Below, in pieces: positions 2,498 through 24,741 of a DNA stretch of 35,912 nucleotides. This DNA comes from Bacillota bacterium (GTDB lineage Bacteria; Bacillota; Dethiobacteria; DTU022). The position numbers were made by a program, and so were the translations under genes. Position 1 is the first letter of the stretch. Each line of letters begins with the position of its first letter. The notes beneath the pieces were generated by a model. That model made no database searches. It saw nothing but the letters and a program-made list of their open reading frames with translations, and was not told the DNA's origin. The stretch spans positions 1-35,912 of the forward strand of contig JAAZIG010000012.1 of assembly GCA_012510325.1 (NCBI GenBank). The letters are read 5' to 3'.

Positions 2498-2535
2498 TTG
2501 TATTATTGTATTAGTCATCTAATACAATAATACAA
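2498..2535. promoter_or_regulatory. Probable GntR/YtrA operator overlapping the operon promoter
   Basis: Perfect 16-bp inverted repeat TTGTATTATTGTATTA-GTCATC-TAATACAATAATACAA. Each arm is itself a tandem of TTGTATTA. It lies 14 to 51 nt upstream of the gntR start and contains -35/-10-like hexamers (TTGTAT, TAATAC/TACAAT) on the minus strand. Confidence 0.6.
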
Positions 2536-2593
2536 CATGCCCGGACCCTTGTCAACAGAGAATATCGCAAATATAAAACAGGAACCTGCTGGT

Positions 2594-3012: not shown

Positions 3013-3100
3013 GATGACTCAAAGAGCTTGCACCATCAGTGAGTCAAAGTCACCGTCCCCTTGACTCGACTCGTCCCCTTGACTCAGTCTCCCTGACTCA
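3013..3100. repeat. Array of five TGA(C/G)TCA-type heptamers, three embedded in a direct repeat GTC(C/T)CCYTGACTC
   Basis: TGACTCA at 3015..3021 and TGAGTCA at 3040..3046. GTCCCCTTGACTC at 3055..3067 and 3073..3085 (18-bp period). GTCTCCCTGACTCA at 3087..3100. The array straddles the stop codon (3084..3086) of the fusion gene. Confidence 0.6.
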
Positions 3101-5807
3101 TGATTCGGGTTTGGCTAATCGCTTCTGCCCTGCGGGCGGCGAGCAGCTGCCGCCAGCGGGGCTCGCCGAGGGGCTGATCGAAGCTGCGCAGAGCGGCGGT
3201 CCTGAAACCGTGGCGGTGGGCCCACTCTCTCGTGAGCAAGATCGATTCCAGGGTGATCCCCGAGGAACCCAGACTAAAATGTTCGTAGCGGTGCTCCAGC
3301 GCCAGCATCACCGTTTCCGCCATGCAGGCGTAGGCCTGCCCCCGGGGAAAACCGAAGCTCCAGCCCAGATTGGGACATCCGGGCAGCTCGACCACACCGC
3401 CGTCGATGACCAGCACATCGGGGCGGAGTTCCTCCACCTCGGCGCTGACATTGGGCGGCCGTGAAATATCGCAGACCACCGCGCCCGGCAGCAGGTCAGC
3501 CGGCCGGATCAGCTTTTCATCACTGCTGGTGGCGCTGATGACGATGCCGCACGAGGAAAGCGCCTCTTGGGCTGAAGTGGTCAGCCGGAGCGGGCCATCG
3601 CGCCGGGAGGCGGAAAGGGCGTAGTCGATAAATGCATCAACCGGGGCCTCCGGGGGCGGCAGCAACTTGCAGCGCGCCAGCTGAGCACCGATGCTGCCGT
3701 CGGGCATCTGCCGACCCGTCTGCAACAGCCCGGCAAGATAGCGATAGATCTCTGCGGCAACCCGCAGCAGCCGCCGGCTGCCGGGAGCGCTGTTTTTACT
3801 GCGCGGATTGCCCACCAGGACCAAACCGCCCACCGTTTCGGAAAGCAACAGAGCCATCCCCTTGCCGATGGAACCGGCCGCCCCGATGATCGCCGCAGTG
3901 TGCTGACAGGGTGATATATCGAGCTTTCTGCAGGCGGTCTGCACCGCTTCGGCCGCCGAAACAACCGTGTAACTGTTGCCCGTGGTCAGGGGAATCCCTT
4001 CATCTTTTAAGTAGAGCCCCCCCATGGAGACAACGGCGGTATAGGCGCCCAGACCGACGATGCCGGCTCCGCCCTCCCGGGCCAGATCCAGCGCTTCCCG
4101 CAGCTCCTGCAGCGCCTCCGCCCGGGGCATCTGCGCCAGCTCCCCGGCGGTGCGCGGCAGAACAATAAATTCGCCGGCAGCGTGACTGCCGTTCCTCGAC
4201 TCCACGTTCACCCGCGAAATCACATACGGCCGCACCAGACTGCTCCATTTTTTTGTCAGGACGGCCAGCTCCGCTTCGCTAAACGAGAGCAGGCTCTGAT
4301 CAAACTGGGAGAAGCTGTTCAGATCAAGCGGATGGACCAGAAAAGCAAAACGCCCGGCAGCAGGCAGGTCATCCGCCTCGCCTGCGGCGGCGCCCCCGTG
4401 ATCCCCCTTTTTTTCGTGGGCTGGTGCCCCCGGGCTGTGCCGACCGTTGGAAGGCGCAGCAGAGGCAACGGCCGACCCCTTTTTGCCGAGCTGCTCCCCG
4501 GAAACTAAAAATGAAAAGAAATTGGCCGTATCGGCTTTATCCAGCTCCGCCAGCATGGCGGCGACGCCTGCCAGCACCCGGCGGCACTGCGCCCCGGAAA
4601 TGATCAGCGGCGGCTCGATGCGGATGACGCTGCCGCCGTTCAGCGTCGGGGCAACCCGGATCCCCTCCCGGTTGAGCAGATAGGCGGAGACCGCCGGAGC
4701 CAGCAGCTCCTGCTCGGCCACAACTTTGAGCAGGGTGCCGGCGAAATGAGACCCGCCGGTGCTGAGCTCCAGACCGAGCATCAGTCCCTTCCCCCGAACG
4801 GCGCGAATAATATGGGGGTATTTCCTTTGCAGAACGCCCAGCCCCTCCTTCAGGATGAGCCCCTGTTTCCTGACGGAATGCAGCAGAGCGCCTTCGTCCG
4901 CGGTCAGCTCCGCCAGCACCTGCAGAGCCACCCGGCAGGCCAGGGAATTGCCGGCAAAGGTTGATGAATGTTTCAAGGCATAAGCAGCGCTGTACGCCGC
5001 AGCGGTGCTCAGACAGGCACCGATGGGGACAAGGCCGCCGCCCAGGGCTTTGGCCAGCAGCAGCACGTCCGGAGTGATCCCCTCCTCTTCACAGGCAAAA
5101 AGCAGCCCGGTTCGCCCCAGGCCGGTCTGGATCTCATCTACCACCAGGAGGACCCCATATCTAGAGCAGATCTTCTTGACCCCGGCAAGATATCCCGGCG
5201 GTGGGACGACGATCCCCCCCTCACCCTGGATCGGTTCGATGAGGAAAGCGGCATAGTCCCGGGGTTTTTGGGAGAGATGCTGTTCCAGAGCGGCGAGATC
5301 ACCATATCCGACAAAATCGAATCCCTCCAGCGGAGCGCCAAAAGGCGTCTGGTAATCGGGATTTCCGGTGGCGGAAAGGGCTCCCAGAGTTTTGCCGTGA
5401 AAGCTGTTCGTCGCCGCCAGGATGCCGCGGCGCCCCGTGGCGGAACGGCAGAGCTTCAGCGCCGCCTCGACCGTTTCGGCACCGCTGTTGGTAAAGGTGA
5501 CGTAGCGCAAACCGGAAGGCGCCAGCTCCACCAGCCGCTGCGCCAGCAAACCGGCTGCATCGAGGTACGAAGGCTGCACAAAATTGGGCTCCTTGGCACT
5601 GTGCAAATCAGCCACCGCCTCCCAGATAGGCGCCGGGTTGTGACCGAAAGGCAGAGCGCCGTACGCGGCGATACAGTCGAGATAGCGCTTCCCGGTGTTG
5701 TCGTAAAGGTGGCAACCCTCCCCCCGGGTAAAAGTTTTGTCCAGGGCAATATTGTGGAGCAGTTCGCCCAGGTACGGATTGAGGTATTCGGCAAATGGAT
5801 GCATCAT
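3084..5807 (-). CDS. Fusion protein: N-terminal class-III (omega) PLP aminotransferase, low-complexity linker, C-terminal acyl-ACP reductase (AAR)-like NAD(P)-dependent domain
   Basis: The N-terminal half has class-III motifs (YLDCIAAYGALPFGHNP, DEIQTGLGRTG, PLP-Lys context LLLAKALGGG). A Gly/Ala/Pro-rich linker lies at about 4354..4490. The C-terminal half parallels cyanobacterial AAR block by block: FAFLVHPLD, GLGAYTAVV, TTGNSYTV, Rossmann IIGAAGSIGKG and catalytic-Cys context YACMAET. Start is set at ATG 5807 (RBS GGTGGGGGGAAG). The track start at 5885 is the TTG of a -35 box. Confidence 0.8.
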   Translation of the reverse strand: MMHPFAEYLNPYLGELLHNIALDKTFTRGEGCHLYDNTGKRYLDCIAAYGALPFGHNPAPIWEAVADLHSAKEPNFVQPSYLDAAGLLAQRLVELAPSGLRYVTFTNSGAETVEAALKLCRSATGRRGILAATNSFHGKTLGALSATGNPDYQTPFGAPLEGFDFVGYGDLAALEQHLSQKPRDYAAFLIEPIQGEGGIVVPPPGYLAGVKKICSRYGVLLVVDEIQTGLGRTGLLFACEEEGITPDVLLLAKALGGGLVPIGACLSTAAAYSAAYALKHSSTFAGNSLACRVALQVLAELTADEGALLHSVRKQGLILKEGLGVLQRKYPHIIRAVRGKGLMLGLELSTGGSHFAGTLLKVVAEQELLAPAVSAYLLNREGIRVAPTLNGGSVIRIEPPLIISGAQCRRVLAGVAAMLAELDKADTANFFSFLVSGEQLGKKGSAVASAAPSNGRHSPGAPAHEKKGDHGGAAAGEADDLPAAGRFAFLVHPLDLNSFSQFDQSLLSFSEAELAVLTKKWSSLVRPYVISRVNVESRNGSHAAGEFIVLPRTAGELAQMPRAEALQELREALDLAREGGAGIVGLGAYTAVVSMGGLYLKDEGIPLTTGNSYTVVSAAEAVQTACRKLDISPCQHTAAIIGAAGSIGKGMALLLSETVGGLVLVGNPRSKNSAPGSRRLLRVAAEIYRYLAGLLQTGRQMPDGSIGAQLARCKLLPPPEAPVDAFIDYALSASRRDGPLRLTTSAQEALSSCGIVISATSSDEKLIRPADLLPGAVVCDISRPPNVSAEVEELRPDVLVIDGGVVELPGCPNLGWSFGFPRGQAYACMAETVMLALEHRYEHFSLGSSGITLESILLTREWAHRHGFRTAALRSFDQPLGEPRWRQLLAARRAEAISQTRIMSQGD

Positions 5808-5856
5808 CTTCCCCCCACCATGGTTGTGCTCATTTTTGTGCACATATTCTTTTCCT

Positions 5857-5885
5857 ATTTTATCCGACTTTTCCGCAGGTGGCAA
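5857..5885 (-). promoter_or_regulatory. Sigma-A-type promoter for the aminotransferase-AAR fusion gene
   Basis: On the minus strand: TTGCCA, a 17-nt spacer, then TAAAAT. It sits immediately downstream of the terminator of the preceding operon and about 50 nt upstream of ATG 5807. Confidence 0.55.
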
Positions 5886-5890
5886 GGGGC

Positions 5891-5925
5891 AAAAAAATTA
5901 AGCCCTCCCCTGGGAGGGGGAGGGC
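5891..5925 (-). terminator. Intrinsic terminator ending the GT4/membrane/M16 operon
   Basis: On the minus strand: GCCCTCCCC-ctccca-GGGGAGGGC (9-bp GC stem) followed by TTAATTTTTTT. Confidence 0.7.
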
Positions 5926-5956: not shown

Positions 5957-7273
5957 TCATTCTTCCTGGGCTGCCGGGTGGATGATGGAAACGGCATGCC
6001 TTGCGGGGTTGAGGATCTCTTCAAGAAGCGCCTCGATCTCAGCCAGGCCGATCTGCTGCAGCACCGCCGGGTAGTTGAACAGGTCGGTGCCGCGGAAACG
6101 GTAGGCCAGGTAATTGTGGGCGACAAATTCCAGCGAATTGAAGCGGCGCATGAATCTGCCGAGGCGATCGCGCCGGTGCCGCTCGAATGCTTCACTGCTC
6201 AGACCGTTCTGCTTGGCCCCCTCAACAGCGCTCATGATCCGCTCGTAGAGCCGCTCCGGATCCCTGGTCGTTCCGCCGATCAGGGCGTATCCATAACTTA
6301 ACTCGGCGGTGTAACCGGCATCAAAGCGATCATCGATGAGCGCATCTTCGTAGAGCTCATTGAACAGAGGCTCACTGGGCCCAAATATGATATCGAGCAG
6401 GATCTCCGCGGCGCTCTCGCGGCGCAGCAGGGCATCTCCGTTGAACCCGGTGACCGCCGGATCTTTGAAGCCCAGATTGAAGAGCGGCTCTGAAACAACC
6501 ATTTCACGAGAAATTCGCGGCCGCGTCACCGCTTCCGGTTCCTCGGGATAAAGGCGGATGATCTCCCCGGACTCTTGGTAGTTGCGCCGGGCGAGATTCG
6601 CTTCCACCTGCCGCCAGATCTCATCGGGATCGAGATCGCCCACCACAAAAAGAGCCATATTGCCGGGGTGGTAGAAGCGGCGGTAACACCGGTACAGCAG
6701 ATCCGGAGTGATCCGGGAGATGCTTTCGACAGTACCCGCGATATCCTCGCGCACCGGGTGGTTTCGGTAAAGCGACTGCAGCAGATCGAAAAAGACCCGC
6801 CAGCCGGGATTATCTTCGTACATGCGGATCTCCTGCGCAATGATCCCCTGCTCCTTGCTCACCGAATCGTCGGTGAAATAGGGCTCCTGAACAAAATCGA
6901 GCAGCAGCTCCAGGCATTCGGAAAAGTGATCCGTTGTCGAGAAAAGATAGGTGGTGTGCGTAAAGGTGGTAAAGGCATTGGACGAAGCCCCGTACGCGGC
7001 AAAGCGGTCGAAAACGTTGCCCCGTTCATCCTCGAACAGTTTGTGCTCCAAAAAATGAGCGACCCCTTCGGGAAGCTTGACCGTCTCGCCGCTGCCGTCA
7101 ACCTGAAAATGGTTGTCGATGGAGCCAAAGTTGGTCGAAAAAGCAGCATACTTGTTCTCATATCCGGCTTTCGGCAGAACATAGAGCTGCAGCCCCGGAT
7201 CGATCCGGTAGCTATACAGAGTTTCCTGCAGCTCGGCAAATTCGCGTATCTTTTTGCTGTTCTCAGCGGGCAT
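5957..7273 (-). CDS. M16-family zinc metallopeptidase, catalytic subunit (HxxEH present)
   Basis: Inverted zinc motif in GVAHFLEHKLFE, with an insulinase-like two-domain length. ATG 7273 has the RBS GAGGGGG 9 nt upstream. The alternative start at 7294 (track) lacks an RBS. Confidence 0.85.
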   Translation of the reverse strand: MPAENSKKIREFAELQETLYSYRIDPGLQLYVLPKAGYENKYAAFSTNFGSIDNHFQVDGSGETVKLPEGVAHFLEHKLFEDERGNVFDRFAAYGASSNAFTTFTHTTYLFSTTDHFSECLELLLDFVQEPYFTDDSVSKEQGIIAQEIRMYEDNPGWRVFFDLLQSLYRNHPVREDIAGTVESISRITPDLLYRCYRRFYHPGNMALFVVGDLDPDEIWRQVEANLARRNYQESGEIIRLYPEEPEAVTRPRISREMVVSEPLFNLGFKDPAVTGFNGDALLRRESAAEILLDIIFGPSEPLFNELYEDALIDDRFDAGYTAELSYGYALIGGTTRDPERLYERIMSAVEGAKQNGLSSEAFERHRRDRLGRFMRRFNSLEFVAHNYLAYRFRGTDLFNYPAVLQQIGLAEIEALLEEILNPARHAVSIIHPAAQEE

Positions 7274-8561
7274 CAGGCTGCACCCCCTCTTCATTTTGCA
7301 GCAGATAGACTGTATCCAGGCGGATCTTCTCTGCCGCCGCCACGATCTCGTCTCTGCCGGTCTCTTCGAGGGCCCGGATCATCTCGGCGGGGCTGTATTT
7401 TCTACCGCCGATCTCCCCGTCCAGGTGGCGATTGATCTGCTGGTAGGGGCTGTCCTCCTGGAGCCGCAGCTGATTGATCAGGCCGACGCGGCTGTTTTCC
7501 AGCTCGGCATCGCTGATGCGGCCCCGGGCCATCTCTTCAACCTGCCTTTCGATAATCTCCCGGGCCTGTTCATAGTCGGCCCCGTCGATCCCGGCGGCGA
7601 CAATCATGATCCCTTTATGCTTCGCCAGCCGGGAGTAAGCGTAGTAGGCCAGGCTGGCCTTCTCGCGAACATTGAGAAACAGTTTGGAATGCGGAAAGCC
7701 CCCCAGGATGCCGCTGTAAAGAACCAGAGCAAAATAAAGCGGGTCGTCGTAAGCGATATTGGTCCGGTAGCCCAGGACCAGCTTGGCCTGGCTGAGCGGC
7801 ATCCTTTCCTGAACAAACCTGGTCTCGGCAGGCTCTACATAAACCGCCGTCTCCGGCAGGCTCTTCTCCTGCGCTCCGCGGCTGAAATGGAGCATCTCCC
7901 GGGCGATCTGCTCCACCCTTTCCGCCTCCAGGTCGCCGACTATGTACAGCTCGACGGGATTGCCAAAGAGAATCTCCCGGTAGTAACGCCAGAGTGAGGC
8001 CGGGCTGATCCCGGCAAGGTCTTCCAGCCTTCCGTATTTAAAAACCCCGAATCTTTCATCGGCGCACATGCTCTGCACACATTTTTCAACAGCATAGAGC
8101 GATTTGTTGTTGATCAACCCCTTGATAATCCTGGCAAGCTGCTCTTTTTCCTGCTCCACATAGTCCTCCTTGAAGCCTCCGTTCACCACCAGGGGATCGC
8201 CGATCACCCCGCCAACGATGGCCAGCCCCCGGCGCAGCATCTCCTCATCTGCACCGACATATTTCCCGTGCATCATCTCCAAAGAGCAGGAGATCAGGTG
8301 ACGCTCCCCCTTTTTCTGAACATCGGCGGACATGGCGGCGCCGTAAAGATTTTCCAGTTCGCGCTGCAGGGTGAGGTTGTCGGGATAGCGGCGGCTGCCC
8401 CGTTCCAAAACTGAAGGCAAAAGCGCCGTCAAGCCGGCCGTTTCGGCGGCCAGCTCCTGGTGGATGAAAAGTGCTATGCTGATGGTCTTGAATTTTACCG
8501 CCGGAATAAAGGTTAGCCGGATGCCGTTCGGCAACCGGGTGACGGTACTTTGTTGAGCCAA
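7263..8561 (-). CDS. M16-family peptidase-like protein, non-catalytic partner (no HxxEH)
   Basis: The 432-aa product has the pitrilysin-like fold pattern, but LPSVLERG replaces the HxxEH site. TTG start with a strong RBS (AAAGGAGGAG, 9-nt spacing). It overlaps the catalytic subunit gene, as in YmfF/YmfH-type pairs. Confidence 0.8.
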   Translation of the reverse strand: MAQQSTVTRLPNGIRLTFIPAVKFKTISIALFIHQELAAETAGLTALLPSVLERGSRRYPDNLTLQRELENLYGAAMSADVQKKGERHLISCSLEMMHGKYVGADEEMLRRGLAIVGGVIGDPLVVNGGFKEDYVEQEKEQLARIIKGLINNKSLYAVEKCVQSMCADERFGVFKYGRLEDLAGISPASLWRYYREILFGNPVELYIVGDLEAERVEQIAREMLHFSRGAQEKSLPETAVYVEPAETRFVQERMPLSQAKLVLGYRTNIAYDDPLYFALVLYSGILGGFPHSKLFLNVREKASLAYYAYSRLAKHKGIMIVAAGIDGADYEQAREIIERQVEEMARGRISDAELENSRVGLINQLRLQEDSPYQQINRHLDGEIGGRKYSPAEMIRALEETGRDEIVAAAEKIRLDTVYLLQNEEGVQPDAR

Positions 8562-8616: not shown

Positions 8617-10974
8617 CTAATCCTGCCGCTCTCCGGCTTGAGCACATCCCCGGTGCAGATTCTTTTGCATCACGGCAAGCAGCGCCGGGGGAACCGCATA
8701 GAGGAGCAGAGTGGCTGCAGCGACCACCCCCGAATCATTCGTCAGCAGGGCGGCGGCGGCTCCGGCGAGGGCCGCCCCCACACCGACAACGAGATAGGGC
8801 TGCTCGCGGTGAAGCCGTTTCAGGAAGCCCCCGGGATAGAGTGACAGGATGATGCAGAGCCCCGCCAGAGTGAGGAAAGCCCGGCTCCAGATAGAGTAGC
8901 GCATCAACCTCAGGTTCATGGCCAGTTTGCGCAGAGCAGTCTCCTGGAGCACCGCCGGACCGCGCAGGCGCAGCATCTCCCCAAAAAGGCCCACATGCGA
9001 TGGCGCCGGGCCGGAGCGGGGTATGTTGAGCAGCCAGAGCAGCCCCGCAGCAACCAGCAGGAAAAAGAGCACGCTGAGCACAACCCGCCTCCGGAACCGG
9101 CCCTTTTGCTCCGCCGCCGCCTGAGACAATCCTGCCCAGGAAACCCCGAAAGCTACCGCTGCGGTGAGGCAACCGCCAAGGTTGGCCCCGAAATTCGGCG
9201 CGGCCAGAACGAAGATGATGAGGCCGTAAAGGAGCAGGATCGACGGAGACGCCAAAGAGAATATCCTGCTTTTTGCCGGCGTCGCCTTCTCTCCCGCCGG
9301 GGGGGCGAGGCCGGCGGCCAGAGAAACCGTTCCCAAAAGAGCCGCTCCGATGAGCACCCCCATATACTCGTTGCCCACGCCGTAATAGCGGGCACCGCCT
9401 ACGGGATCATAACTGAACAGAGAGAGCTGCTGCAATGGGGCACCGGCAAGGGTGTCAAGCAGCAGTAGCAGGACAATCCCCCAGCCCAGCATCGTCCAGT
9501 ACAGAAGCTGTCCCCTTTCTGCCAGAGGCTGGAACAACAGCGCCGCTGCCAGCGCCGTCCCGCAGAGAAGGAGGCCGCTGAGCGGCGCCGCCGCCAACGG
9601 AAAGGTAAACAGCGCCGGCAGCAGCAGCAGCACCGGCGGAACCAGCAGCAACATCCCGATGAGGTAACGGGCCGGCTTCAGCACCGGGCGGATATGAAGA
9701 CAGATCCCCGCCAGAGCAGCCAGGAGCACCAGCATGAGAAGGGCAATATAAGGTTTCAGAAGGAGAGCCCGCTGCTCGAAAACCAGTCCCGCCCGGCGGT
9801 TAAAGCCCTCCAAAAACATGCGGGGCTCTTCTTCCGGGATTATGCTGAAGTAAGCAGCACTGCGCCCGGGATCGCTTTTTTCGCCGCCCAGCAGGTCCAG
9901 GATCAGCGGAGCCAGATCGGTATTCTGAATTAGACCGGGGCGGCGGGTGGAGGTGCTGCCGAGGAGCCCTCCCGCAGCATTACCGCCGGTAACAAGGAGC
10001 GCAGGGGCGAGATGAGCTCCGCTGTCGGGCCGGTTCTGCGGCAGCGAGGGCACCGCCAGAAGCAGCACATCGTTCTCCCCCAGAGCGGAGCGCAGCTCTC
10101 CGAGCAGCCGGTCCAGATTGCGCAGCGTTTCTCCAAGAAGCGCCGCCCCCCTGACCGGGTTGAGCTGAGGCCAGTACTCGTCGAGGCGGCTGCTGTCCCC
10201 GAATTCAACAAGGTGCAGATCCGCCTCCATCATATTGGCGGCAACGGTTCCGGCCAGCTTGTTCACATCTGTGCACACTCCATAAGGAAACAGGGGGGCC
10301 TCCTGCAGCAGCTCCGCTCCCACGAGTCCGCGGCGAACCTCCCCGGCGGCATTCATCGCCACCAGCACGGCACAGCGGTTGGGCACAGCTCCGTCGGCAT
10401 TGCCCCAGACAGCCGCAGTCAGCCCCCTCTCCCGGAGCGCCTCTCCGAGCAGCCCCACCTTGACCGGATAGGGCAGGGTGCTGTTCTTCTCCTGGAGCGC
10501 CGCCGCCTGAAGATGGAACAGCGTTCCGGAGGGCTCATTTCCGGTACAGCGCTTAAAGACAACGGCGGCGTTCTCCCCGTCGATGAACTCGCCCTCGCCA
10601 AAGGCGCTCCTTCCCTCCGCTCCCGCTGCCGCTCTGGCGGCGGTGCCAATACTCAGATAGCCGCTTTCACTGCCCGCTCTTCCGCTGCGCACATTCATCA
10701 GCGCTACGGCACCCTCCTCCAGAACAGAGGACAGATTCGGTCCGGCACCGTGAAGCAGATCAGTATAAGTAAGGCGATCCGCCAGCAGCAGGATCACCCG
10801 CCCGGTAGCCCCGCCCCCTTCAGCGGCGGCGCTGAAAAGAGACTGCGGCGCCCTCGCCCGGCGGCACCACTGAACTGCTGTGACAAGCAAAAGAGAGAGC
10901 ACCACCGCGCCGGCTGCGACGGCCAACCCTACTTTTAGGGGAAAACCCTTTCCGGAACAGAAGCTCCGCTTCAC
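8617..10974 (-). CDS. Large polytopic membrane protein of unknown function: signal-anchor, ~380-aa extracytoplasmic domain (possibly alkaline-phosphatase/sulfatase-superfamily-like), then ~400 aa with many TM helices
   Basis: N-terminal TM segment (VGLAVAAGAVVLSLLLV), a soluble region ending in TRRPGLIQNTDLAPLILDLLG (reminiscent of the sulfatase-fold DIAPT motif), then a long hydrophobic C-terminal half. GTG start 4 nt after the GT4 stop. The function call is weak. Confidence 0.55.
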   Translation of the reverse strand: MKRSFCSGKGFPLKVGLAVAAGAVVLSLLLVTAVQWCRRARAPQSLFSAAAEGGGATGRVILLLADRLTYTDLLHGAGPNLSSVLEEGAVALMNVRSGRAGSESGYLSIGTAARAAAGAEGRSAFGEGEFIDGENAAVVFKRCTGNEPSGTLFHLQAAALQEKNSTLPYPVKVGLLGEALRERGLTAAVWGNADGAVPNRCAVLVAMNAAGEVRRGLVGAELLQEAPLFPYGVCTDVNKLAGTVAANMMEADLHLVEFGDSSRLDEYWPQLNPVRGAALLGETLRNLDRLLGELRSALGENDVLLLAVPSLPQNRPDSGAHLAPALLVTGGNAAGGLLGSTSTRRPGLIQNTDLAPLILDLLGGEKSDPGRSAAYFSIIPEEEPRMFLEGFNRRAGLVFEQRALLLKPYIALLMLVLLAALAGICLHIRPVLKPARYLIGMLLLVPPVLLLLPALFTFPLAAAPLSGLLLCGTALAAALLFQPLAERGQLLYWTMLGWGIVLLLLLDTLAGAPLQQLSLFSYDPVGGARYYGVGNEYMGVLIGAALLGTVSLAAGLAPPAGEKATPAKSRIFSLASPSILLLYGLIIFVLAAPNFGANLGGCLTAAVAFGVSWAGLSQAAAEQKGRFRRRVVLSVLFFLLVAAGLLWLLNIPRSGPAPSHVGLFGEMLRLRGPAVLQETALRKLAMNLRLMRYSIWSRAFLTLAGLCIILSLYPGGFLKRLHREQPYLVVGVGAALAGAAAALLTNDSGVVAAATLLLYAVPPALLAVMQKNLHRGCAQAGERQD

Positions 10975-10978
10975 CTTT

Positions 10979-12166
10979 TCACCGTCCGCCGGAGGGCAGC
11001 GATACTGTCTCTGCAGAACCCCGGGGGTGCTGCTCGCCGGCCAGGCGGCGGTACAGAAAAGCGGTCCGGGAAAGCATCAGCTCCCGGTTAAACCTCTTTC
11101 CAACCCGTTCAGAGCAGGCGCGGGCGAGCCGGCGCGCCCTTTCCGGATCGCGGGCCAGGGTCGCAACCGCCCGGGCCAAAGCGACTATATCGGCCGGGGG
11201 AACCAGAAGACCGTGCACCCCGTCGGTGATGATCTCGGGGATACCGCCGGATCGGGCAGCCACCACGGCACAGCCTGCAGCGGACGCCTCCAGAACGGTT
11301 TGCAGAGATTCCCCGGCCGCCGTGGGAAAGACAAAGAGATCTATCCCGGCAAACCGGGGCCTCAACCCGGTGCGGCCGCCAAAGGAGAAACGACCGCCCA
11401 GCCCCCGCTGCCGCACCAGCTTTTCCAGAGCCGCGCGGCCGGGCCCTTCGCCAAAGAGCAGAAAGCGCATCTGCGGAAAAAGAGGCGCCAGGACTGCAGC
11501 GGCTTCCACAAAACAGGAGAGCTCTCTCCGGCGATCAAAGTAACCTGCCGCACCGACGGTGAGCCGATCTCTCCACCACTGCCTTGAAAAACGCTCCGCC
11601 GCCGCGCTTTCAAAAAGGGCCGGCTCGATCCCGTTGTGGATCACGCTGATCTGTTCCTCCGGAATCCCCCGGCCGGCCAGTTCAGCGGCCAGCGCGCAAG
11701 AGACGGCGATATAGTGGGCCTCCATCGCTCCCGGCAGTCTGCCGACAGCGGCAAGGTTTTGCCAAAGCCGGTGAGCAGGGCGGCCATGCACCGTAACCAG
11801 AGCGGGAACCCGGGCCAGACGCGCCGCCGGAAGACCAAACAGCGCCGCCCTGAATCCGTGGATATGCAACAGCAGCGGATTGATCGTCCGCAGCGCCCGG
11901 CAAAGACGCTGAAAACTGTGCAGCACACCGCCCGGGAAATCTCCCCCGGCCAGCGCCAGCTCGAAGAAAGAACCTTCCGGAAGGGCGGCCATTTCCGGGT
12001 AACTGTTTTCCGGCGGCGCTCCCAGATAGATGATGTGATCCCGACTGAAGCGGCGCAGCAGCTGCTGTAGATGGCTGCGCATGCCGCCGGCGGCAGGGCC
12101 GCTCAAGTAGAACAGCTTCTTTTCACCGGTTCCCCGGCCAGATTTCCCCGGATCCACCCGCACCAC
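10979..12166 (-). CDS. Family 4 (GT-B) glycosyltransferase
   Basis: C-terminal GT4 signature EGFGLV-equivalent region: FPTAAGESLQTVLEASAAGCAVVAARSGGIPEIITDGVHGLLVPP. The exact start is uncertain (GTG at 12166, 12163 or 12157). Confidence 0.85.
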   Translation of the reverse strand: MVRVDPGKSGRGTGEKKLFYLSGPAAGGMRSHLQQLLRRFSRDHIIYLGAPPENSYPEMAALPEGSFFELALAGGDFPGGVLHSFQRLCRALRTINPLLLHIHGFRAALFGLPAARLARVPALVTVHGRPAHRLWQNLAAVGRLPGAMEAHYIAVSCALAAELAGRGIPEEQISVIHNGIEPALFESAAAERFSRQWWRDRLTVGAAGYFDRRRELSCFVEAAAVLAPLFPQMRFLLFGEGPGRAALEKLVRQRGLGGRFSFGGRTGLRPRFAGIDLFVFPTAAGESLQTVLEASAAGCAVVAARSGGIPEIITDGVHGLLVPPADIVALARAVATLARDPERARRLARACSERVGKRFNRELMLSRTAFLYRRLAGEQHPRGSAETVSLPSGGR

Positions 12167-12261
12167 CCGCCCCTCGCACTGTCTACCGTCATATGTTTAT
12201 ATGGTGCCCATTTACCGCAGATCGATGTGGCCGGGGAGCCTTTTTCCCGCCGCCCGCCGGT

Positions 12262-12290
12262 TTGACTTCACCGGGCTGAAGTGTTATCAT
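12262..12290 (+). promoter_or_regulatory. Sigma-A-type promoter for tRNA-Arg
   Basis: TTGACT, a 17-nt spacer, then TATCAT, ending 20 nt upstream of the tRNA 5' end. Confidence 0.6.
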
Positions 12291-12310
12291 TTTTGATGCA
12301 GCCACTGCAG

Positions 12311-12385
12311 GCGCCCGTGGTGAAAGGGATATCACGCAGGCCTCCGGAGCCTGAAGTCGGGGTTCGAATCCCTGCGGGCGCACCA
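12311..12385 (+). tRNA. tRNA-Arg (anticodon CCG), CCA encoded
   Basis: Manual cloverleaf. Acceptor stem GCGCCCG/CGGGCGC has 7 perfect bp. D stem GUGA/UCAC. Anticodon stem CAGGC/GCCUG with loop CUCCGGA (U33, CCG, G37). T arm CGGGG-UUCGAAU-CCCUG. Discriminator A followed by CCA. Length 75 nt. Confidence 0.9.
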
Positions 12386-12386
12386 G

Positions 12387-12417
12387 GCAACCCTCCTTCT
12401 TGAAGGGTTGCTTTTTT
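12387..12417 (+). terminator. Intrinsic terminator after tRNA-Arg
   Basis: GCAACCCT with a 9-nt loop and AGGGTTGC, followed by TTTTTT. Confidence 0.75.
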
Positions 12418-12434
12418 GTTGGCTGTCCGCGCAC

Positions 12435-12463
12435 TTGCCATTTCCCAAAAAAAAGAATATGAT
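12435..12463 (+). promoter_or_regulatory. Sigma-A-type promoter candidate for mgtE
   Basis: TTGCCA, a 17-nt spacer, then TATGAT. This leaves a leader of about 130 nt before ATG 12597. Confidence 0.5.
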
Positions 12464-12596
12464 CAGACCATCGTGACGATGGGGAAGGAGGTGGGGTTGT
12501 GGAGACGGAAGATATCCCTATTCCTAGTTGCAATCGATCCGGATTACTTATTAAAGCAGCGTTACCGCCGCTAAACCCTGCCAAGGAGGTCCTTCC

Positions 12597-21435: not shown

Positions 21436-22683
21436 ATGAGCAAGGCCGAAAAAATATACAGTTTTGATAAATCGATGGAGCTTTTCCACAGGGCCGCCCG
21501 GACCATTCCGGGAGGAATCTACGGCCACTTTTCGCCCACGATTACCGTGCCCGGTTCATTTCCTTACTACACAGCCGAAGCCAAAGGGTGCCGCTATCTC
21601 GATGTAGACGGCAATGAGATGATCGATTATATGTGCGCTTTCGGACCGATGGTCCTCGGTTACCGCAATAAGACGGTCGATTCGGCGGCGGCGACTCAGC
21701 AGGCCCTGGCCGATTGCACCACCCATCCCGGAGTGGTCATGATCGAGCTGGCCGAGCGCCTGGTGGAGCTGATCCCCACCGCCGACTGGGCCTTTTTTGG
21801 AAAAAACGGCGGCGATATGACCACCTACGCCATCCTGGCCGCACGAGCCCACACCAATCGCAAAAAGATCGTCATGGTGCGCGGTCACTATCACGGCGTC
21901 GCCCCCTGGTGCACGGCGCTCGGTTTTGGTGGAATTATCCCCGAAGATCATTATCAGATCATCCAGGTGGACTGGAACGACCTCGATGAATTCGAAAAAG
22001 TGGTTGCAGAGCACCGGGGCGATATCGCCGGTTTTATCGCCCAGCCCTATCACCATATCAATTTTGGCGACCAGATCATGCCCGCCGCCGGCTACTGGAA
22101 GGGCATCGAGCAGATCTGCCGCCGCGAAGGGATTGTCCTGATCCTGGATGATGTTCGCGCCGGTTTCCGCCTCAGCATGAAAGGCTCCGGCGATTACTTC
22201 GGTTTTGAGCCCGATCTCAGCTGCTACTGTAAAGCCATCGCCAACGGGTACGCCCTGTCGGCCTGCGTCGGGCGCCGGGAGCTGATGAATGCCGCTTCGA
22301 AGGTTTTCTTCACCGGCTCCTTCTGGACCTCCCAGGTGCCGATGGCCGCTGCTCTGGCCACACTAAGCGAGCTGGAAAGAACAGATGCTCCCGGGAGGAT
22401 GAAGGAGACGGGAACGCTGCTGGGTGACGGGCTCAAAGAGCTGGGCCGCCAATATGGACTCGAGGTAACCTTTTCCGGTCCCCCGGCGATCCCGTTCATG
22501 CGCTTCACTGAAGACCGCGATTTCTACTGGCAGCAGATCTTCTGCTCCGAGGTAACCAAAAGAGGCTCCTTCTTCCACCCCCACCACAACTGGTTCATCT
22601 CGACGGCGCATGAGCAAGAAGATATCGAAGAGACCCTGAATCACGCTGAAGCAGCGATCAAGGTGGTGAAAAGGGAGATTTAA
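21436..22683 (+). CDS. Class-III PLP aminotransferase, glutamate-1-semialdehyde aminomutase-like
   Basis: N-terminal RTIPGG motif, ILDDVRAGFR, and Lys context YCKAIANGYALSA. 415 aa. RBS AAGGAGGAA. Confidence 0.85.
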   Translation: MSKAEKIYSFDKSMELFHRAARTIPGGIYGHFSPTITVPGSFPYYTAEAKGCRYLDVDGNEMIDYMCAFGPMVLGYRNKTVDSAAATQQALADCTTHPGVVMIELAERLVELIPTADWAFFGKNGGDMTTYAILAARAHTNRKKIVMVRGHYHGVAPWCTALGFGGIIPEDHYQIIQVDWNDLDEFEKVVAEHRGDIAGFIAQPYHHINFGDQIMPAAGYWKGIEQICRREGIVLILDDVRAGFRLSMKGSGDYFGFEPDLSCYCKAIANGYALSACVGRRELMNAASKVFFTGSFWTSQVPMAAALATLSELERTDAPGRMKETGTLLGDGLKELGRQYGLEVTFSGPPAIPFMRFTEDRDFYWQQIFCSEVTKRGSFFHPHHNWFISTAHEQEDIEETLNHAEAAIKVVKREI

Positions 22684-22859
22684 CCCTTGCCGGAGAAATG
22701 CGGTGAACCGCAGCCGCAGCGGCGGGCAAACTTTTCTCCAGCGGGGGATCCCCGGGGAAACCCTGTGTGTACCGCCGGCGCAATCACTGGCCGGGTTCTC
22801 GGCGACACACTGATCTCTCCGCAAGATTATCTCATTTCCTGAAGGAGGGCGAGGCGAAA

Positions 22860-23687
22860 ATGCCAAAAGACGTTTCTGTGGAAGAGCTCAAGGCAAAGGC
22901 AAAAGAGCTGCGGCTCAACATCCTCAAAACAGCCAAATCTGCCGGGAGCGGTCATTTTGGTGGATCTCTGAGCAGTGCGGATATCTTCACCGCACTATAT
23001 TTCAAGTATCTCCATGTGGATTCCGAAAAACCGGCGATGCCCGAACGAGATAAGTTTGTTCTCAGCAAAGGGCACGCCGCTCTCGCTTATGTGCCCTGTT
23101 TGGCCATGAAAGGATTTGTCCCCATGGAGTCGCTCGAATCATTTAACCATTACGAATCCGCTTACGGAATGCACCCCGATGCCGGCAAGATCAGCGGTTG
23201 CGACGCTTCCACCGGATCACTGGGCCATGGACTATCAATTGGTGTGGGTATGGCTCTGGGCGACCGCTATCAGAACCTGGACACCAAAGTGGTGGTTTTG
23301 ATGGGCGACGGCGAGCAGAATGAAGGCAGTATCTGGGAAGCCGCCATGGCCGCCAGCCATTTCCAATTAAACAATCTCATTGCCATCGTCGATCGCAACC
23401 AGTTCTCCATCGACGGGAATACCGAAGAGATCATGTCCCTTGAACCTTTGGACAAAAAATACGAGGCTTTCGGATTCAAGGTGATCCGATGCAACGGCAA
23501 TGATCTGGCCGAGCTAGACAAGGCTCTGGCGGAAGCCTGGGGAGAAAAAGAAAAACCCGTCTGCATAATCGCCAGGACAAAAAAGGGCTTCGGGGTAAAA
23601 AGATTCCAGGGTGCAGTTGAGTGGCACTACGGAGCCATGGATGTCGAAATGTACAAAGAGGCTTTGGCCGACATTGAGGCGCTCTAA
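22860..23687 (+). CDS. Transketolase, N-terminal (TPP/PP-domain) subunit of a split enzyme
   Basis: GSGHFGGSLSSADI, SKGHAA and the TPP motif MGDGEQNEGSIWEA. ATG 22860 follows RBS GGAGGG. The upstream 31 codons in the track lack support. Confidence 0.9.
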   Translation: MPKDVSVEELKAKAKELRLNILKTAKSAGSGHFGGSLSSADIFTALYFKYLHVDSEKPAMPERDKFVLSKGHAALAYVPCLAMKGFVPMESLESFNHYESAYGMHPDAGKISGCDASTGSLGHGLSIGVGMALGDRYQNLDTKVVVLMGDGEQNEGSIWEAAMAASHFQLNNLIAIVDRNQFSIDGNTEEIMSLEPLDKKYEAFGFKVIRCNGNDLAELDKALAEAWGEKEKPVCIIARTKKGFGVKRFQGAVEWHYGAMDVEMYKEALADIEAL

Positions 23688-23716
23688 GGATTCCATCGGA
23701 AAAGGAGGAGCCGACG

Positions 23717-24730: not shown

Positions 24731-24741
24731 GGAGGCCAAAG

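What the first reader, a model, noticed from the sequence alone, without database searches (positions are those of the whole stretch)
3084..5807. Single-polypeptide fusion of a class-III aminotransferase with an acyl-ACP-reductase-like domain (possible thioester-to-amine module)
**Seen in the sequence**
- One uninterrupted 907-codon frame.
- The N-terminal ~430 aa carry class-III aminotransferase motifs, including the PLP-lysine context LAKALGGG.
- After a Gly/Ala/Pro-rich linker, the C-terminal ~390 aa parallel my recollection of cyanobacterial acyl-ACP reductase (Synechococcus elongatus orf1594) block by block.
- The matching blocks are FAFLVHPLD vs FGLIGHLTS, TTGNSYTV vs TTGNTHTA, GAAGSIGKG vs GATGDIGSA and YACMAET vs FACFAEA. 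The last one contains the catalytic Cys.
- The gene is insulated by its own terminator upstream (5891..5925) and its own promoter (5857..5885).

**Inference**
- AAR reduces an acyl thioester to an aldehyde, and omega-aminotransferases turn aldehydes into primary amines.
- The fusion could therefore channel acyl-ACP/CoA to aldehyde to alkyl or functionalised amine, or run the reverse direction catabolically.
- I am not aware of a characterised enzyme with this architecture, and the substrate is unknown.
Basis: partly seen in the sequence, partly recalled or inferred. Interest (0 to 1): 0.8.

Follow-up and report, generated by a model that had tools for sequence, protein, structure and literature searches.

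The report
TamH-like thioester reductase–transaminase fusion enzyme
This gene really does encode an aminotransferase fused to an acyl-thioester reductase that should turn an activated carboxylic acid into a primary amine, but the same two-domain enzyme is already published (TamH and PigE), so what is new is only an uncharacterised branch of it in uncultured Bacillota.

Summary
One 907-codon minus-strand ORF (3084..5807) encodes an N-terminal class-III aminotransferase (Pfam E 3.6e-86). A Gly/Ala-rich linker joins it to a C-terminal acyl-ACP-reductase (AAR)-like domain. That domain matches AAR at E about 1e-18 to 1e-20, against about 0.01 for GluTR and shikimate dehydrogenase. Foldseek puts AAR first (E 2.8e-21).

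The PLP lysine (K253), the Rossmann glycines and the catalytic cysteine (C828) are invariant in 22 homologues.

Both halves match PigE best, and TamH of Pseudoalteromonas has the same domain order. TamH has been shown to convert acyl-carrier thioesters to aldehydes and then to amines.

The window protein belongs to a large uncharacterised clade (more than 120 full-length homologues, 53-99% identity) in uncultured Bacillota. It sits in a core-genome setting, not a pigment gene cluster. It usually lies just downstream of a YmfF/YmfH-type M16B peptidase pair.

A relative that is 53% identical over the whole unit is fused to a FadD-like adenylation domain plus a carrier domain. This supports the route acid, acyl-carrier thioester, aldehyde, amine.

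The substrate is unknown. Verdict: new member of a known kind, moderate interest.

The parts
3084..5807 (-). Whole gene: 907-aa transaminase-thioester reductase (TA-TR) fusion, including the stop codon
   Evidence: More than 120 full-length homologues.
4563..5732 (-). Class-III PLP aminotransferase domain (aa 26-415)
   Evidence: Pfam PF00202 E 3.6e-86. Best PDB match is the PigE transaminase domain 4ppm, E 1.8e-93, ahead of putrescine aminotransferase at 7e-83.
5049..5051 (-). Codon of Lys253, the predicted PLP Schiff-base lysine in LAKALGGG
   Evidence: Invariant in 22 of 22 homologues. Position verified.
4353..4502 (-). Gly/Ala-rich inter-domain linker (about aa 436-485)
   Evidence: Composition: 12 Ala and 10 Gly in 50 residues. 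No conserved columns there in the alignment.
3129..4352 (-). AAR-like thioester reductase domain (aa 486-893)
   Evidence: TIGR04058 E 6.5e-20. The PigE profile (positions 206-360 of 837 for the best stretch) scores E 5.6e-48. PDB: PigE 4ppm 3.3e-30 and AAR 6jzq 2.8e-18. AF2 model pLDDT 86.9. Foldseek top hit is AAR 6jzy, E 2.8e-21, TM 0.75.
3864..3884 (-). Nucleotide-binding motif G642-A-A-G-S-I-G648 (GxxGxxG)
   Evidence: G642, A643, G645 and G648 are invariant. The motif aligns with GATGDIG of AAR.
3324..3326 (-). Codon of Cys828, the predicted acyl-enzyme nucleophile in YACMAET
   Evidence: Invariant in 22 of 22 homologues. Aligned with AAR Cys294 and with the Cys of PigE's GCMAET, which PMC8341465 gives as Cys296.
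3558..3809 (-). Stretch after Rossmann strand 2 (aa 667-750) that carries about 50-60 extra residues relative to AAR and PigE, modelled as helices
   Evidence: This stretch is not aligned to PigE or AAR. It is present in clade members and in the A-ACP-TA-TR relative P0122. Helices in the AF2 model.
5857..5885 (-). Sigma-70-like promoter match upstream of the gene (TTGCCA-17-TAAAAT)
   Evidence: Consensus match only.
5902..5925 (-). Intrinsic-terminator-like hairpin plus T-run, ending the upstream ymfH-like gene
5957..7294 (-). YmfH-type M16B peptidase subunit, a recurrent upstream neighbour
   Evidence: NCBIfam NF047421, 536 bits against a cut-off of 250. Synteny.
7263..8561 (-). YmfF-type M16B peptidase subunit, a recurrent upstream neighbour
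   Evidence: NCBIfam NF047422, 440 bits against a cut-off of 285.

Best explanation
The gene encodes a TamH/PigE-type bifunctional enzyme.

**Proposed mechanism**
1. The C-terminal AAR-like domain takes an acyl group from a thioester donor onto Cys828. The donor is most likely an acyl-phosphopantetheinyl carrier protein loaded by an adenylating enzyme, less likely acyl-CoA.
2. It reduces the acyl-enzyme with NAD(P)H bound at the G642xxGxxG648 Rossmann site and releases an aldehyde.
3. The N-terminal class-III transaminase, with PLP on Lys253, converts that aldehyde to a primary amine. The amino donor is an alpha-amino acid such as glutamate.

The net conversion is activated carboxylic acid to primary amine, probably an aliphatic one.

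**Shown here**
- Domain identities, and conserved catalytic residues.
- Fold of the reductase domain.
- Homology of both halves to PigE.
- Existence of fused adenylation-carrier-TA-TR relatives.

**Inferred**
- Activity and direction of the reaction.
- Carrier dependence, cofactor and amino donor.
- Any channelling of the aldehyde between the domains.

**Unknown**
- The acyl substrate and the biological role.
- In this clade the gene is a core-genome gene next to a YmfF/YmfH peptidase pair, not part of a pigment cluster.
For: **Domain identities**
- Aminotran_3 E 3.6e-86.
- The transaminase half matches PigE 4ppm best, at 1.8e-93.
- The reductase half matches PigE at 3.3e-30 and AAR at 2.8e-18, and the AcACP_reductase model at 6.5e-20.
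- The AF2 model has pLDDT 86.9. Foldseek returns AAR structures as the top seven hits, best E 2.8e-21, target-normalised TM 0.75-0.76. The carmabin TAD comes next. Shikimate dehydrogenase and FolD reach only E about 1e-3 to 1e-4 with TM below 0.45.

**Conserved residues**
- K253, R396, G642/G645/G648 and C828 are invariant in 22 homologues of 54-75% identity.

**Published biochemistry**
- PigE reduces a thioester and transaminates the resulting aldehyde (PMC8341465).
- PtTamH has the same domain order. It makes C12 amine from acyl-TamA-ACP with NADH and L-Glu, and has a catalytic Cys887 (PMC9594044).

**Fused relatives**
- P0122 (1599 aa) is 53% identical to the window protein over 893 residues, including the reductase-domain insertion.
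- P0122 carries an N-terminal AMP-binding domain and a PP-binding domain. The first is most like long-chain fatty-acid-CoA ligases, the second like FAS-type ACPs.
- Other architectures found: TA-TR-adenylation, TR-adenylation, and adenylation-AONS-adenylation-carrier-TA-TR.
Against: - No adenylation enzyme, acyl-CoA ligase or carrier protein lies within the 36-kb window or in the 7-10 kb flanks of the loci whose genes were inspected. The thioester donor is therefore unidentified.
- The protein scores below the curated cut-offs of both the PigE model (557.7 against 850) and the AAR model (71.7 against 449.7). It is not an orthologue of either.
- Purified PigE showed no clear NAD(P)H consumption, and TamH did not accept acyl-CoA. 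Activity in this family depends on partners that are not known here.
- In one Dethiobacteria contig (L089) the same genomic slot holds a 462-aa transaminase without the reductase domain.
- The structurally related carmabin TAD may use the same fold for amidation rather than reduction.
Confidence: 0.7

Rival explanations
1. Same two chemistries run in the catabolic direction. The transaminase deaminates a primary amine (such as a diamine or an omega-amino acid) to an aldehyde. The AAR-like domain then oxidises the aldehyde to an acyl-CoA or acyl-carrier thioester, acting as an acylating aldehyde dehydrogenase in an anaerobe.
For: - After PigE, the transaminase domain is closest to the catabolic putrescine aminotransferase YgjG: PDB 7e-83, NCBIfam 3.4e-95.
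- The gene sits among housekeeping and fermentative genes, not in a biosynthetic cluster.
- Thioester/aldehyde interconversion by NAD(P) enzymes is reversible in principle (general biochemistry, my own knowledge).
Against: - All characterised members (AAR, PigE, TamH) act reductively.
- The nearest non-orthologous relatives are fused to adenylation and carrier domains. That only makes sense for acid to thioester to aldehyde to amine.
- No amine-uptake or downstream beta-oxidation genes are conserved nearby.
Confidence: 0.1
2. The enzyme belongs functionally with the adjacent YmfF/YmfH pair. NCBI labels that pair 'EF-P 5-aminopentanol modification-associated'. On this reading the enzyme supplies the terminal amine, or a precursor, of an EF-P Lys modification in Bacillota. 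It would occupy the slot held by the reductase gene ymfI in Bacillus subtilis and replace GsaB (a class-III aminotransferase) plus a reductase.
For: **Neighbour identity**
- The upstream genes pass the NCBIfam equivalog cut-offs for YfmH_fam and YfmF_fam.

**Synteny**
- The M16B pair lies directly upstream of the TA-TR gene in the window, L084, L085, L081/L082, L004, L090, L091 and L092.
- It lies 1.5-5 kb upstream in L088, L086 and L001.
- The flanks differ between these loci.
- Among the 120 best fusion homologues and the 120 best YmfH homologues, 26 'longest contig' lengths coincide. Five of these contigs are only 4.8-7.6 kb long.
- Three YmfH homologues picked without regard to the fusion all had a class-III aminotransferase gene downstream.

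**Pathway knowledge**
- The B. subtilis pathway needs a class-III aminotransferase paralogue (GsaB) and an NADPH reductase (YmfI), and is still not fully deciphered (PMC5885033, PMC10221552, PMC13602936).
Against: - Neither paper read on YmfF/YmfH mentions EF-P. One treats them as an M16B peptidase pair that can cleave lanthipeptide precursors. The other lists them as putative inner-spore-membrane metalloproteases. Only the NCBIfam name ties them to EF-P.
- A strong terminator and a separate promoter lie between ymfH and the fusion gene.
- The syntenic genomes also share MurT/GatD and other neighbours, so shared ancestry may explain the adjacency.
- Homologues at 55-56% identity, and one at about 64% over a cut gene, lack the pair within 8-10 kb: L083, L087, L002, L005.
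- YmfI is a ketoreductase, which is different chemistry from thioester reduction. The proposed B. subtilis intermediates do not require an aldehyde.
- No efp, ymfI, gsaB or ynbB orthologue was identified in the window.
- That ymfI follows ymfH in B. subtilis is from my own memory and was not checked here.
Confidence: 0.06
3. The C-terminal domain is not a thioester reductase. It would be a shikimate-dehydrogenase, GluTR or amino-acid-dehydrogenase-type domain (JGI annotates homologues as 'predicted amino acid dehydrogenase'). Or it would be a TAD-like domain that uses NAD for non-reductive chemistry such as amide formation.
For: - Weak Pfam hits to THF_DHG_CYH_C (E 3.7e-4) and Shikimate_DH (E 1.4e-3).
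- JGI names.
- The carmabin TAD is the second-best structural neighbour, E 1.5e-15, and its chemistry is unresolved.
Against: - The Pfam hits are below the gathering scores and cover only parts of the Rossmann region (aa 607-672 and 744-795).
- AAR and PigE reductase matches are 15 or more orders of magnitude better.
- Foldseek gives TM 0.75 to AAR, against less than 0.45 for shikimate dehydrogenase and FolD.
- Sequence identity in the Foldseek alignments is 22-23% to AAR and 15-16% to the TAD.
- Fusion to a transaminase supplies a use for an aldehyde product.
Confidence: 0.04

Closest known systems
PtTamH (Pseudoalteromonas tunicata, tambjamine YP1 pathway; PMC9594044)
   Same: - Same domain composition and order: N-terminal class-III PLP transaminase, a linker of about 50 aa, then a C-terminal AAR-like thioester reductase.
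- Similar size: 941 aa against 907 aa.
- Both have a GxxGxxG motif and a catalytic Cys near the C-terminus (C887 against C828).
- Same predicted chemistry: acyl-carrier thioester to aldehyde to primary amine.
   Different: - TamH lies in a bipyrrole pigment cluster beside its dedicated adenylation-ACP partner TamA. The window gene has no such partner or cluster nearby and lies in a core-genome region of an uncultured Bacillota organism.
- I did not have the TamH sequence, so direct identity was not measured. TA-TR representatives of about 940-950 aa are 34-40% identical in the reductase domain, and their origin is unknown.
- The window clade's reductase domain has about 50-60 more residues after Rossmann strand 2 than AAR or PigE. 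Whether TamH has them was not tested.
PigE (Serratia, prodigiosin MAP branch; PDB 4ppm; NCBIfam NF053554; PMC8341465)
   Same: - Best database match for both halves: transaminase 1.8e-93, reductase 3.3e-30.
- Bifunctional thioester reductase plus transaminase.
- The catalytic Cys aligns (GCMAET against ACMAET).
   Different: - Domain order is reversed: PigE has the reductase at the N-terminus and the transaminase at the C-terminus.
- The window protein scores 557.7 bits against the equivalog cut-off of 850.
- No PigD or PigB partners were found in the window.
Cyanobacterial acyl-ACP reductase (AAR; PDB 6jzq, 6jzu, 6jzy; TIGR04058)
   Same: - Same fold (Foldseek E 2.8e-21, TM 0.75).
- Aligned catalytic Cys and NAD(P)H motif.
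- Ping-pong acyl-enzyme mechanism, expected by homology.
   Different: - AAR is a stand-alone protein of about 340 aa that hands its aldehyde to the deformylating oxygenase ADO.
- Here the domain is fused to a transaminase and is about 80 aa longer.
- It scores 71.7 bits against the cut-off of 449.7.
- No ADO-like hit appeared among the ORFs that were scanned.
GluTR-GSAM (HemA-HemL) pair
   Same: Same logic: a Cys-dependent reduction of an activated carboxyl to an aldehyde is coupled to a class-III PLP enzyme. PMC8341465 draws this analogy for PigE.
   Different: - Only marginal sequence similarity to GluTR (E 0.015-0.04).
- The transaminase domain is putrescine/acetylornithine-aminotransferase-like, not HemL-like.
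- A separate HemL-like gene exists elsewhere in the window (21436..22683).
Carmabin terminal amidation domain (TAD; PDB 9e4s; bioRxiv 10.1101/2024.10.28.620694)
   Same: AAR-like two-subdomain fold with an invariant Cys next to the nicotinamide. It acts on carrier-bound thioesters. It is the second-best structural neighbour.
   Different: - Only 15-16% identity.
- The TAD sits at the end of NRPS modules and is linked to amide, not amine, products.
- It is not fused to a transaminase.

Membership tests
TamH/PigE-type bifunctional thioester reductase-transaminase | Class-III PLP aminotransferase domain with a Schiff-base lysine | tested here: met
   PF00202 E 3.6e-86. K253 is invariant. PigE is the best PDB match.
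TamH/PigE-type bifunctional thioester reductase-transaminase | AAR-like reductase domain with GxxGxxG and a catalytic Cys, in the same polypeptide | tested here: met
   C828 and G642/G645/G648 are invariant. The frame is uninterrupted in more than 120 homologues.
TamH/PigE-type bifunctional thioester reductase-transaminase | Domain order transaminase (N-terminal) then reductase (C-terminal), as in TamH | tested here: met
   Transaminase aa 26-415, reductase aa 486-893. TamH order from PMC9594044.
TamH/PigE-type bifunctional thioester reductase-transaminase | [quoted passage not shown] | not testable with these tools
   Needs an enzyme assay. Inferred only from homology and from the fused adenylation-carrier-TA-TR relatives.
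PigE equivalog (NCBIfam NF053554, prodigiosin MAP biosynthesis) | Score at or above the curated cut-off, with PigE domain order | tested here: not met
   557.7 bits against 850. The match is split into 4 stretches in permuted order.
PigE/TamH pathway context (bipyrrole pigments) | Location in a prodiginine or tambjamine cluster, with PigD/PigB or TamA/TamT-type partners | tested here: not met
   No AMP-binding, PP-binding or amine-oxidase Pfam hit among the ORFs scanned in the window. The only thiamine-diphosphate enzyme is a split transketolase 17 kb away. None of these families appears in the gene tables of the inspected clade loci either.
Long-chain acyl-ACP reductase (TIGR04058, alkane pathway) | Score at or above the equivalog cut-off; stand-alone protein of about 340 aa; partnered with aldehyde-deformylating oxygenase | tested here: not met
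   71.7 bits against 449.7. The domain is fused. No ADO-like hit among the scanned window ORFs.
Shikimate/quinate dehydrogenase or glutamyl-tRNA reductase | Significant match to the family models over the catalytic domain | tested here: not met
   Shikimate_DH 19.1 bits against a cut-off of 24.3, covering only aa 744-795. hemA E 0.015, 14.3 bits against 209.55. Foldseek TM below 0.4 for shikimate dehydrogenase.
EF-P Lys32 5-aminopentanol modification system (B. subtilis YmfI/GsaB/YnbB) | Orthology to YmfI (SDR), GsaB (HemL paralogue) or YnbB | tested here: not met
   The transaminase is PigE/putrescine-aminotransferase-like, not HemL-like. The reductase is AAR-like, not an SDR.
EF-P Lys32 5-aminopentanol modification system (B. 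subtilis YmfI/GsaB/YnbB) | Conserved adjacency to the YmfF/YmfH pair | tested here: inconclusive
   Adjacent or within 5 kb in 11 inspected loci. 26 contig lengths are shared between the two hit lists. Absent in 5 loci. Shared ancestry of the syntenic genomes is not excluded.

The most novel reading that the evidence does not exclude
In this Bacillota lineage the TA-TR enzyme is not a secondary-metabolite tailoring enzyme. It would be a housekeeping partner of the YmfF/YmfH M16B pair, building the amine-bearing side chain (or its precursor) of a post-translational modification such as the EF-P Lys 5-aminopentanol-type modification. It would do this by a thioester to aldehyde to amine route that replaces GsaB and YmfI of Bacillus subtilis. 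That would fill in a pathway that reviews up to 2026 still call incompletely deciphered.
Probability: 0.06. Interest if true: 0.8.

Novelty: new member of a known kind. Interest (0 to 1): 0.4.

Why it matters
**Biocatalysis**
- Natural thioester-to-amine, and with a partner acid-to-amine, enzymes are sought for fatty and functionalised amine synthesis. Only TamH and PigE have been studied.
- This clade adds more than 120 diverse sequences, apparently from anaerobic and alkaline environments.
- The relatives include single-chain adenylation-carrier-TA-TR proteins, which would be self-contained acid-to-amine catalysts.

**Biology**
- The gene is a conserved core-genome gene in uncultured Bacillota with no pigment cluster around it. 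An unknown primary amine is therefore probably being made, possibly a lipid amine, a polyamine-like compound or a modification precursor.
- Its persistent adjacency to the functionally obscure YmfF/YmfH peptidase pair is a lead worth testing.

**Annotation**
- These proteins are currently labelled only as 'class III aminotransferase'. That label misses the reductase half.

Tried and rejected
**Searches that gave little**
- The genome-contig scan with the full-length alignment chose generic aminotransferase peptide patterns. It returned mostly unrelated class-III aminotransferases.
- The listing of cluster members on 10 representatives, including candidates of TamH-like size, returned no names or taxa. 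I could not place TamH itself among the hits or measure identity to it.
- Exact look-up of the window protein found nothing. Near-identical contigs were reached through the YmfH protein instead and showed no partner genes further downstream.
- The Hummels 2017 paper on YmfI was not held. The statement that ymfI follows ymfH in B. subtilis therefore rests on my own knowledge.
- The Rfam scan found only one tRNA.

**Ideas rejected**
- A shikimate-dehydrogenase, GluTR or THF-dehydrogenase identity for the C-terminal half.
- A frameshift or two-gene artefact.
- Orthology to the PigE or AAR models.
- A HemA/HemL replacement: the transaminase is not HemL-like, and a separate HemL-like gene exists.

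**Considered but given little weight**
- ProRS lies immediately downstream in five related loci. This is probably lineage synteny, and it is absent in the window.

Full report
**1. What is in the sequence**

The feature is a single minus-strand ORF. Its longest frame is 3084..5885. The first ATG is at 5807, behind a GGTGGGGGG ribosome-binding-like run, which gives 907 aa.

| Motif | Residues |
|---|---|
| LAKALGGG | 251-258 |
| FAFLVHPLD | 487-495 |
| TTGNSYTV | 608-615 |
| GAAGSIGKG | 642-650 |
| YACMAET | 826-832 |

The linker (about aa 436-485) has 12 Ala and 10 Gly in 50 residues.

A 9-bp G+C-rich hairpin with a T-run (5925..5902) follows the upstream gene. A TTGCCA-17-TAAAAT promoter-like site (5885..5857) precedes the ORF. 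These are consensus matches, not proof of function.

More than 120 database proteins of 858-916 aa align over 96-100% of the length at 53-99% identity. The fusion is therefore real and conserved, not a frameshift artefact.

**2. Identity of the two halves**

- *Transaminase half.* Pfam assigns aa 26-415 to Aminotran_3 (E 3.6e-86). Its best solved relative is the transaminase domain of PigE (4ppm, E 1.8e-93). Putrescine aminotransferase (7e-83) and acetylornithine or ornithine aminotransferases follow.
- *Reductase half, by sequence.* The C-terminal 422 aa match the PigE profile (best stretch at profile positions 206-360; E 5.6e-48) and the long-chain acyl-ACP reductase model TIGR04058 (E 6.5e-20). 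GluTR reaches only E 0.015-0.04.
- *Reductase half, against PDB sequences.* The order is PigE (3.3e-30), AAR 6jzq/6jzu (about 3e-18), then GluTR (0.04).
- *Weak Pfam hits.* The hits to THF_DHG_CYH_C and Shikimate_DH are below the gathering scores. They cover only short stretches of the Rossmann region.
- *Reductase half, by fold.* An AlphaFold2 model of residues 480-907, built on a 22-sequence alignment, has mean pLDDT 86.9 and pTM 0.87.
  - Foldseek against the PDB returns AAR structures as the top seven hits, best E 2.8e-21, target-normalised TM 0.75-0.76.
  - The carmabin 'terminal amidation domain' follows at E about 1e-15.
  - FolD, shikimate dehydrogenase and malic enzyme appear only at E about 1e-3 to 1e-5 with TM below 0.45.
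- *Conserved residues.* In 22 homologues (54-75% identical) these are invariant: the PLP lysine K253, R396 in the IRIEPPL motif, G642/A643/G645/G648, the TTGNSYT motif and C828. C828 aligns with AAR Cys294 and with the Cys of PigE's GCMAET.

The half is closer to AAR than to shikimate dehydrogenase or GluTR, the Cys is conserved, and there is no frameshift.

**3. The architecture is already published**

- NCBIfam's top hit for the whole protein is 'prodigiosin MAP biosynthesis aminotransferase PigE'. It scores 557.7 bits, below the 850 cut-off. The match is split because the domain order is permuted.
- Couturier et al. (PMC8341465) showed that PigE has an N-terminal AAR-like thioester reductase domain with Cys296, plus the C-terminal transaminase. 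With cell lysate it reduces a thioester and transaminates the aldehyde.
- PMC9594044 characterised PtTamH (941 aa). It has an N-terminal class-III transaminase, a linker of about 50 aa and a C-terminal AAR-like reductase with GxxGxxG and Cys887.
  - It converts acyl groups tethered to the TamA carrier into aldehydes and then fatty amines.
  - It uses NADH and L-Glu, and does not accept acyl-CoA (also summarised).

The biochemical inference was right, but the novelty claim was not.

**4. What distinguishes the window protein**

- *Clade.* It belongs to a clade found in uncultured Bacillota. Source labels include Dethiobacter, Limnochordia, Halanaerobiales, Syntrophomonadaceae and 'Bacillota bacterium'. 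Its members are annotated only as 'aminotransferase class III'.
- *No known partners.* The window holds no prodiginine or tambjamine-type partners. No AMP-binding, PP-binding or amine-oxidase hit appeared among the ORFs scanned, and the only thiamine-diphosphate enzyme is a split transketolase 17 kb away. The gene tables of related loci show none of these families either.
- *Neighbourhood.* The surrounding genes are core-genome-like. They include a GT4 glycosyltransferase, an unannotatable 785-aa membrane protein, MgtE, MurT, HisG, aspartokinase and cell-wall hydrolases.
- *Extra residues.* Compared with AAR and PigE, the reductase domain carries about 50-60 extra residues after Rossmann strand 2 (within aa 667-750). 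They are modelled as helices and are conserved in the clade.

**5. Evidence about the substrate**

A HMMER scan of 1.84 billion representatives with the reductase domain found 2742 relatives at E up to 1e-3, of which 534 reach 1e-30. Their architectures are varied:

| Representative | Length | Architecture |
|---|---|---|
| many | about 840-1000 aa | reductase domain at the C-terminal end, length consistent with TA-TR (Pfam not run on these) |
| P0126 | 427 aa | reductase-domain-sized, no Pfam hit |
| P0128 | 1423 aa | TA-TR-adenylation |
| P0266 | 949 aa | TR-adenylation |
| P0122 | 1599 aa | adenylation-carrier-TA-TR |
| P0134 | 2624 aa | adenylation-AONS-adenylation-carrier-TA-TR |

P0122 is 53% identical to the window protein across 893 residues, including the insertion. 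That is as close as the more distant members of the Bacillota clade itself. P0128 is 45% identical over 902 residues.

The adenylation domain of P0122 is most similar to long-chain fatty-acid-CoA ligases, such as FadD13 (9e-21) and PRK06187 (3e-43). Its carrier domain resembles FAS-type ACPs.

These fusions strongly suggest that the family converts a carboxylic acid to a primary amine. The acid would first be activated and loaded on a phosphopantetheinyl carrier. The fusions also suggest that the reaction runs in the reductive direction. The acyl donor for the stand-alone window enzyme is not encoded nearby and remains unknown.

**6. The recurrent neighbour**

The two genes immediately upstream (7263..8561 and 5957..7294) pass the NCBIfam equivalog cut-offs for YfmF_fam and YfmH_fam. 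NCBI names these 'EF-P 5-aminopentanol modification-associated'. They are M16B peptidase subunits.

*Where the pair is found*
- Directly upstream of the TA-TR gene in the window, L084 (74% identity), L085 (60%), L081/L082 (58%), L004 (67%), L090 (59%), L091 and L092.
- About 1.5 to 5 kb upstream in L088, L086 and L001.
- The flanks differ between these loci.

*Supporting counts*
- Among the 120 best fusion homologues and the 120 best YmfH homologues, 26 'longest contig' lengths coincide. Five of these contigs are only 4.8-7.6 kb long.
- Three YmfH homologues chosen without regard to the fusion all had a class-III aminotransferase gene downstream. In one of them (L089, Dethiobacteria) it is a 462-aa transaminase without the reductase domain.

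*Where the pair is missing*
- Absent within 8-10 kb in L083, L087, L002, L005 and the distant Metabacillus homologue L013.

*Weighing the association*
- In B. subtilis (my own recollection, not checked here) the gene after ymfF-ymfH is ymfI, the reductase of the EF-P Lys32 5-aminopentanol pathway. That pathway also needs the class-III aminotransferase paralogue GsaB and is still called incompletely deciphered.
- This makes an EF-P-related role an attractive but weak hypothesis.
- Neither paper read on YmfF/YmfH mentions EF-P. One treats them as an M16B peptidase pair able to cleave lanthipeptide precursors. The other lists them as putative inner-spore-membrane metalloproteases.
- A terminator separates ymfH from the fusion gene.
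- The syntenic genomes share other neighbours (MurT/GatD, ProRS), so vertical inheritance may suffice as an explanation.
- The chemistry of YmfI, ketone reduction, differs from thioester reduction.

**7. Verdict**

- The mechanistic interpretation is supported by homology, conserved catalytic residues, predicted fold and fused-domain relatives. In it, an acyl-thioester is reduced at Cys828 with NAD(P)H, and the aldehyde is transaminated by PLP on Lys253.
- The architecture is not new. It is that of TamH, and of PigE in permuted order.
- The window protein is a new, uncharacterised member of this known kind, in a different lineage and in a non-pigment, core-genome context. Its substrate is unknown.
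- I put confidence in the TamH-like mechanism at about 0.7, a catabolic reverse reaction at about 0.1, a functional link to YmfF/YmfH and EF-P modification at about 0.06, and a non-reductase C-terminal domain at about 0.04.
- Interest is moderate (0.4). It is useful for biocatalysis and for annotation, with one intriguing genomic association, but it is not a new kind of enzyme.

Noticed in passing
window 5957..8561 (-): A YmfF/YmfH-type M16B peptidase pair passes the NCBIfam cut-offs for 'EF-P 5-aminopentanol modification-associated' proteins. It lies directly upstream of the fusion gene, and this adjacency recurs in many related contigs.
   Followed up: yes
window 8617..12166 (-): A 785-aa protein with many predicted transmembrane stretches has no Pfam or NCBIfam hit. 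It follows a GT4 glycosyltransferase. The same GT4, unknown protein and M16B pair order is conserved in L084, L085 and L089.
   Followed up: partly
window 21436..25641 (+): A second class-III aminotransferase, HemL/GntE-like but below all cut-offs, is followed by a split transketolase (N-terminal half 22767..23687, C-terminal half 23717..24730). An unannotatable 304-aa ORF comes next. This may be a separate small amino-sugar or amino-ketone cassette.
   Followed up: no
window 3054..3099: Three near-tandem copies of a 14-nt unit (GAGTCAAGGGGACG on the coding strand) straddle the stop codon of the fusion gene.
   Followed up: no
window 2498..2555: A perfect 17-nt inverted repeat (2498-2514 / 2519-2535) overlaps an 11-of-12 promoter match. 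It lies in front of the GntR, ABC-ATPase and 265-aa unknown operon, which is PmtR/PmtA-like. It is probably the GntR operator.
   Followed up: no
window 12311..12382 (+): A tRNA gene (Rfam, 62 bits) lies inside the mechanical ORF 12189..12584, which is therefore probably spurious.
   Followed up: no
L089 8429..9817: In a Dethiobacteria contig the slot after the M16B pair holds a 462-aa transaminase only. It is 45% identical to the window's transaminase domain, has no reductase domain, and is followed directly by ProRS. This is a natural reductase-less variant or paralogue.
   Followed up: partly
L081, L086, L088, L089, L090 (downstream of the fusion gene): Prolyl-tRNA synthetase follows the TA(-TR) gene directly in five related loci. 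5-formyl-THF cyclo-ligase follows ProRS directly in four of them and after one intervening PALP gene in L089. This arrangement is not present in the window.
   Followed up: no
L013 8271..16214 (Metabacillus rhizosphaerae chromosome): A distant TA-TR homologue (about 34-35% identity) sits in a different apparent operon. The order is FAD amine oxidase, TA-TR, DUF3419, Glu/Leu/Phe/Val dehydrogenase, MFS transporter and TetR. This looks like a small amine-product pathway with its own amino-donor regeneration.
   Followed up: partly
P0122, P0128, P0134, P0266 (representative library): Single-chain adenylation-carrier-TA-TR, TA-TR-adenylation, TR-adenylation and adenylation-AONS-adenylation-carrier-TA-TR proteins exist. 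They are potential self-contained acid-to-amine enzymes. I found no paper describing them.
   Followed up: partly
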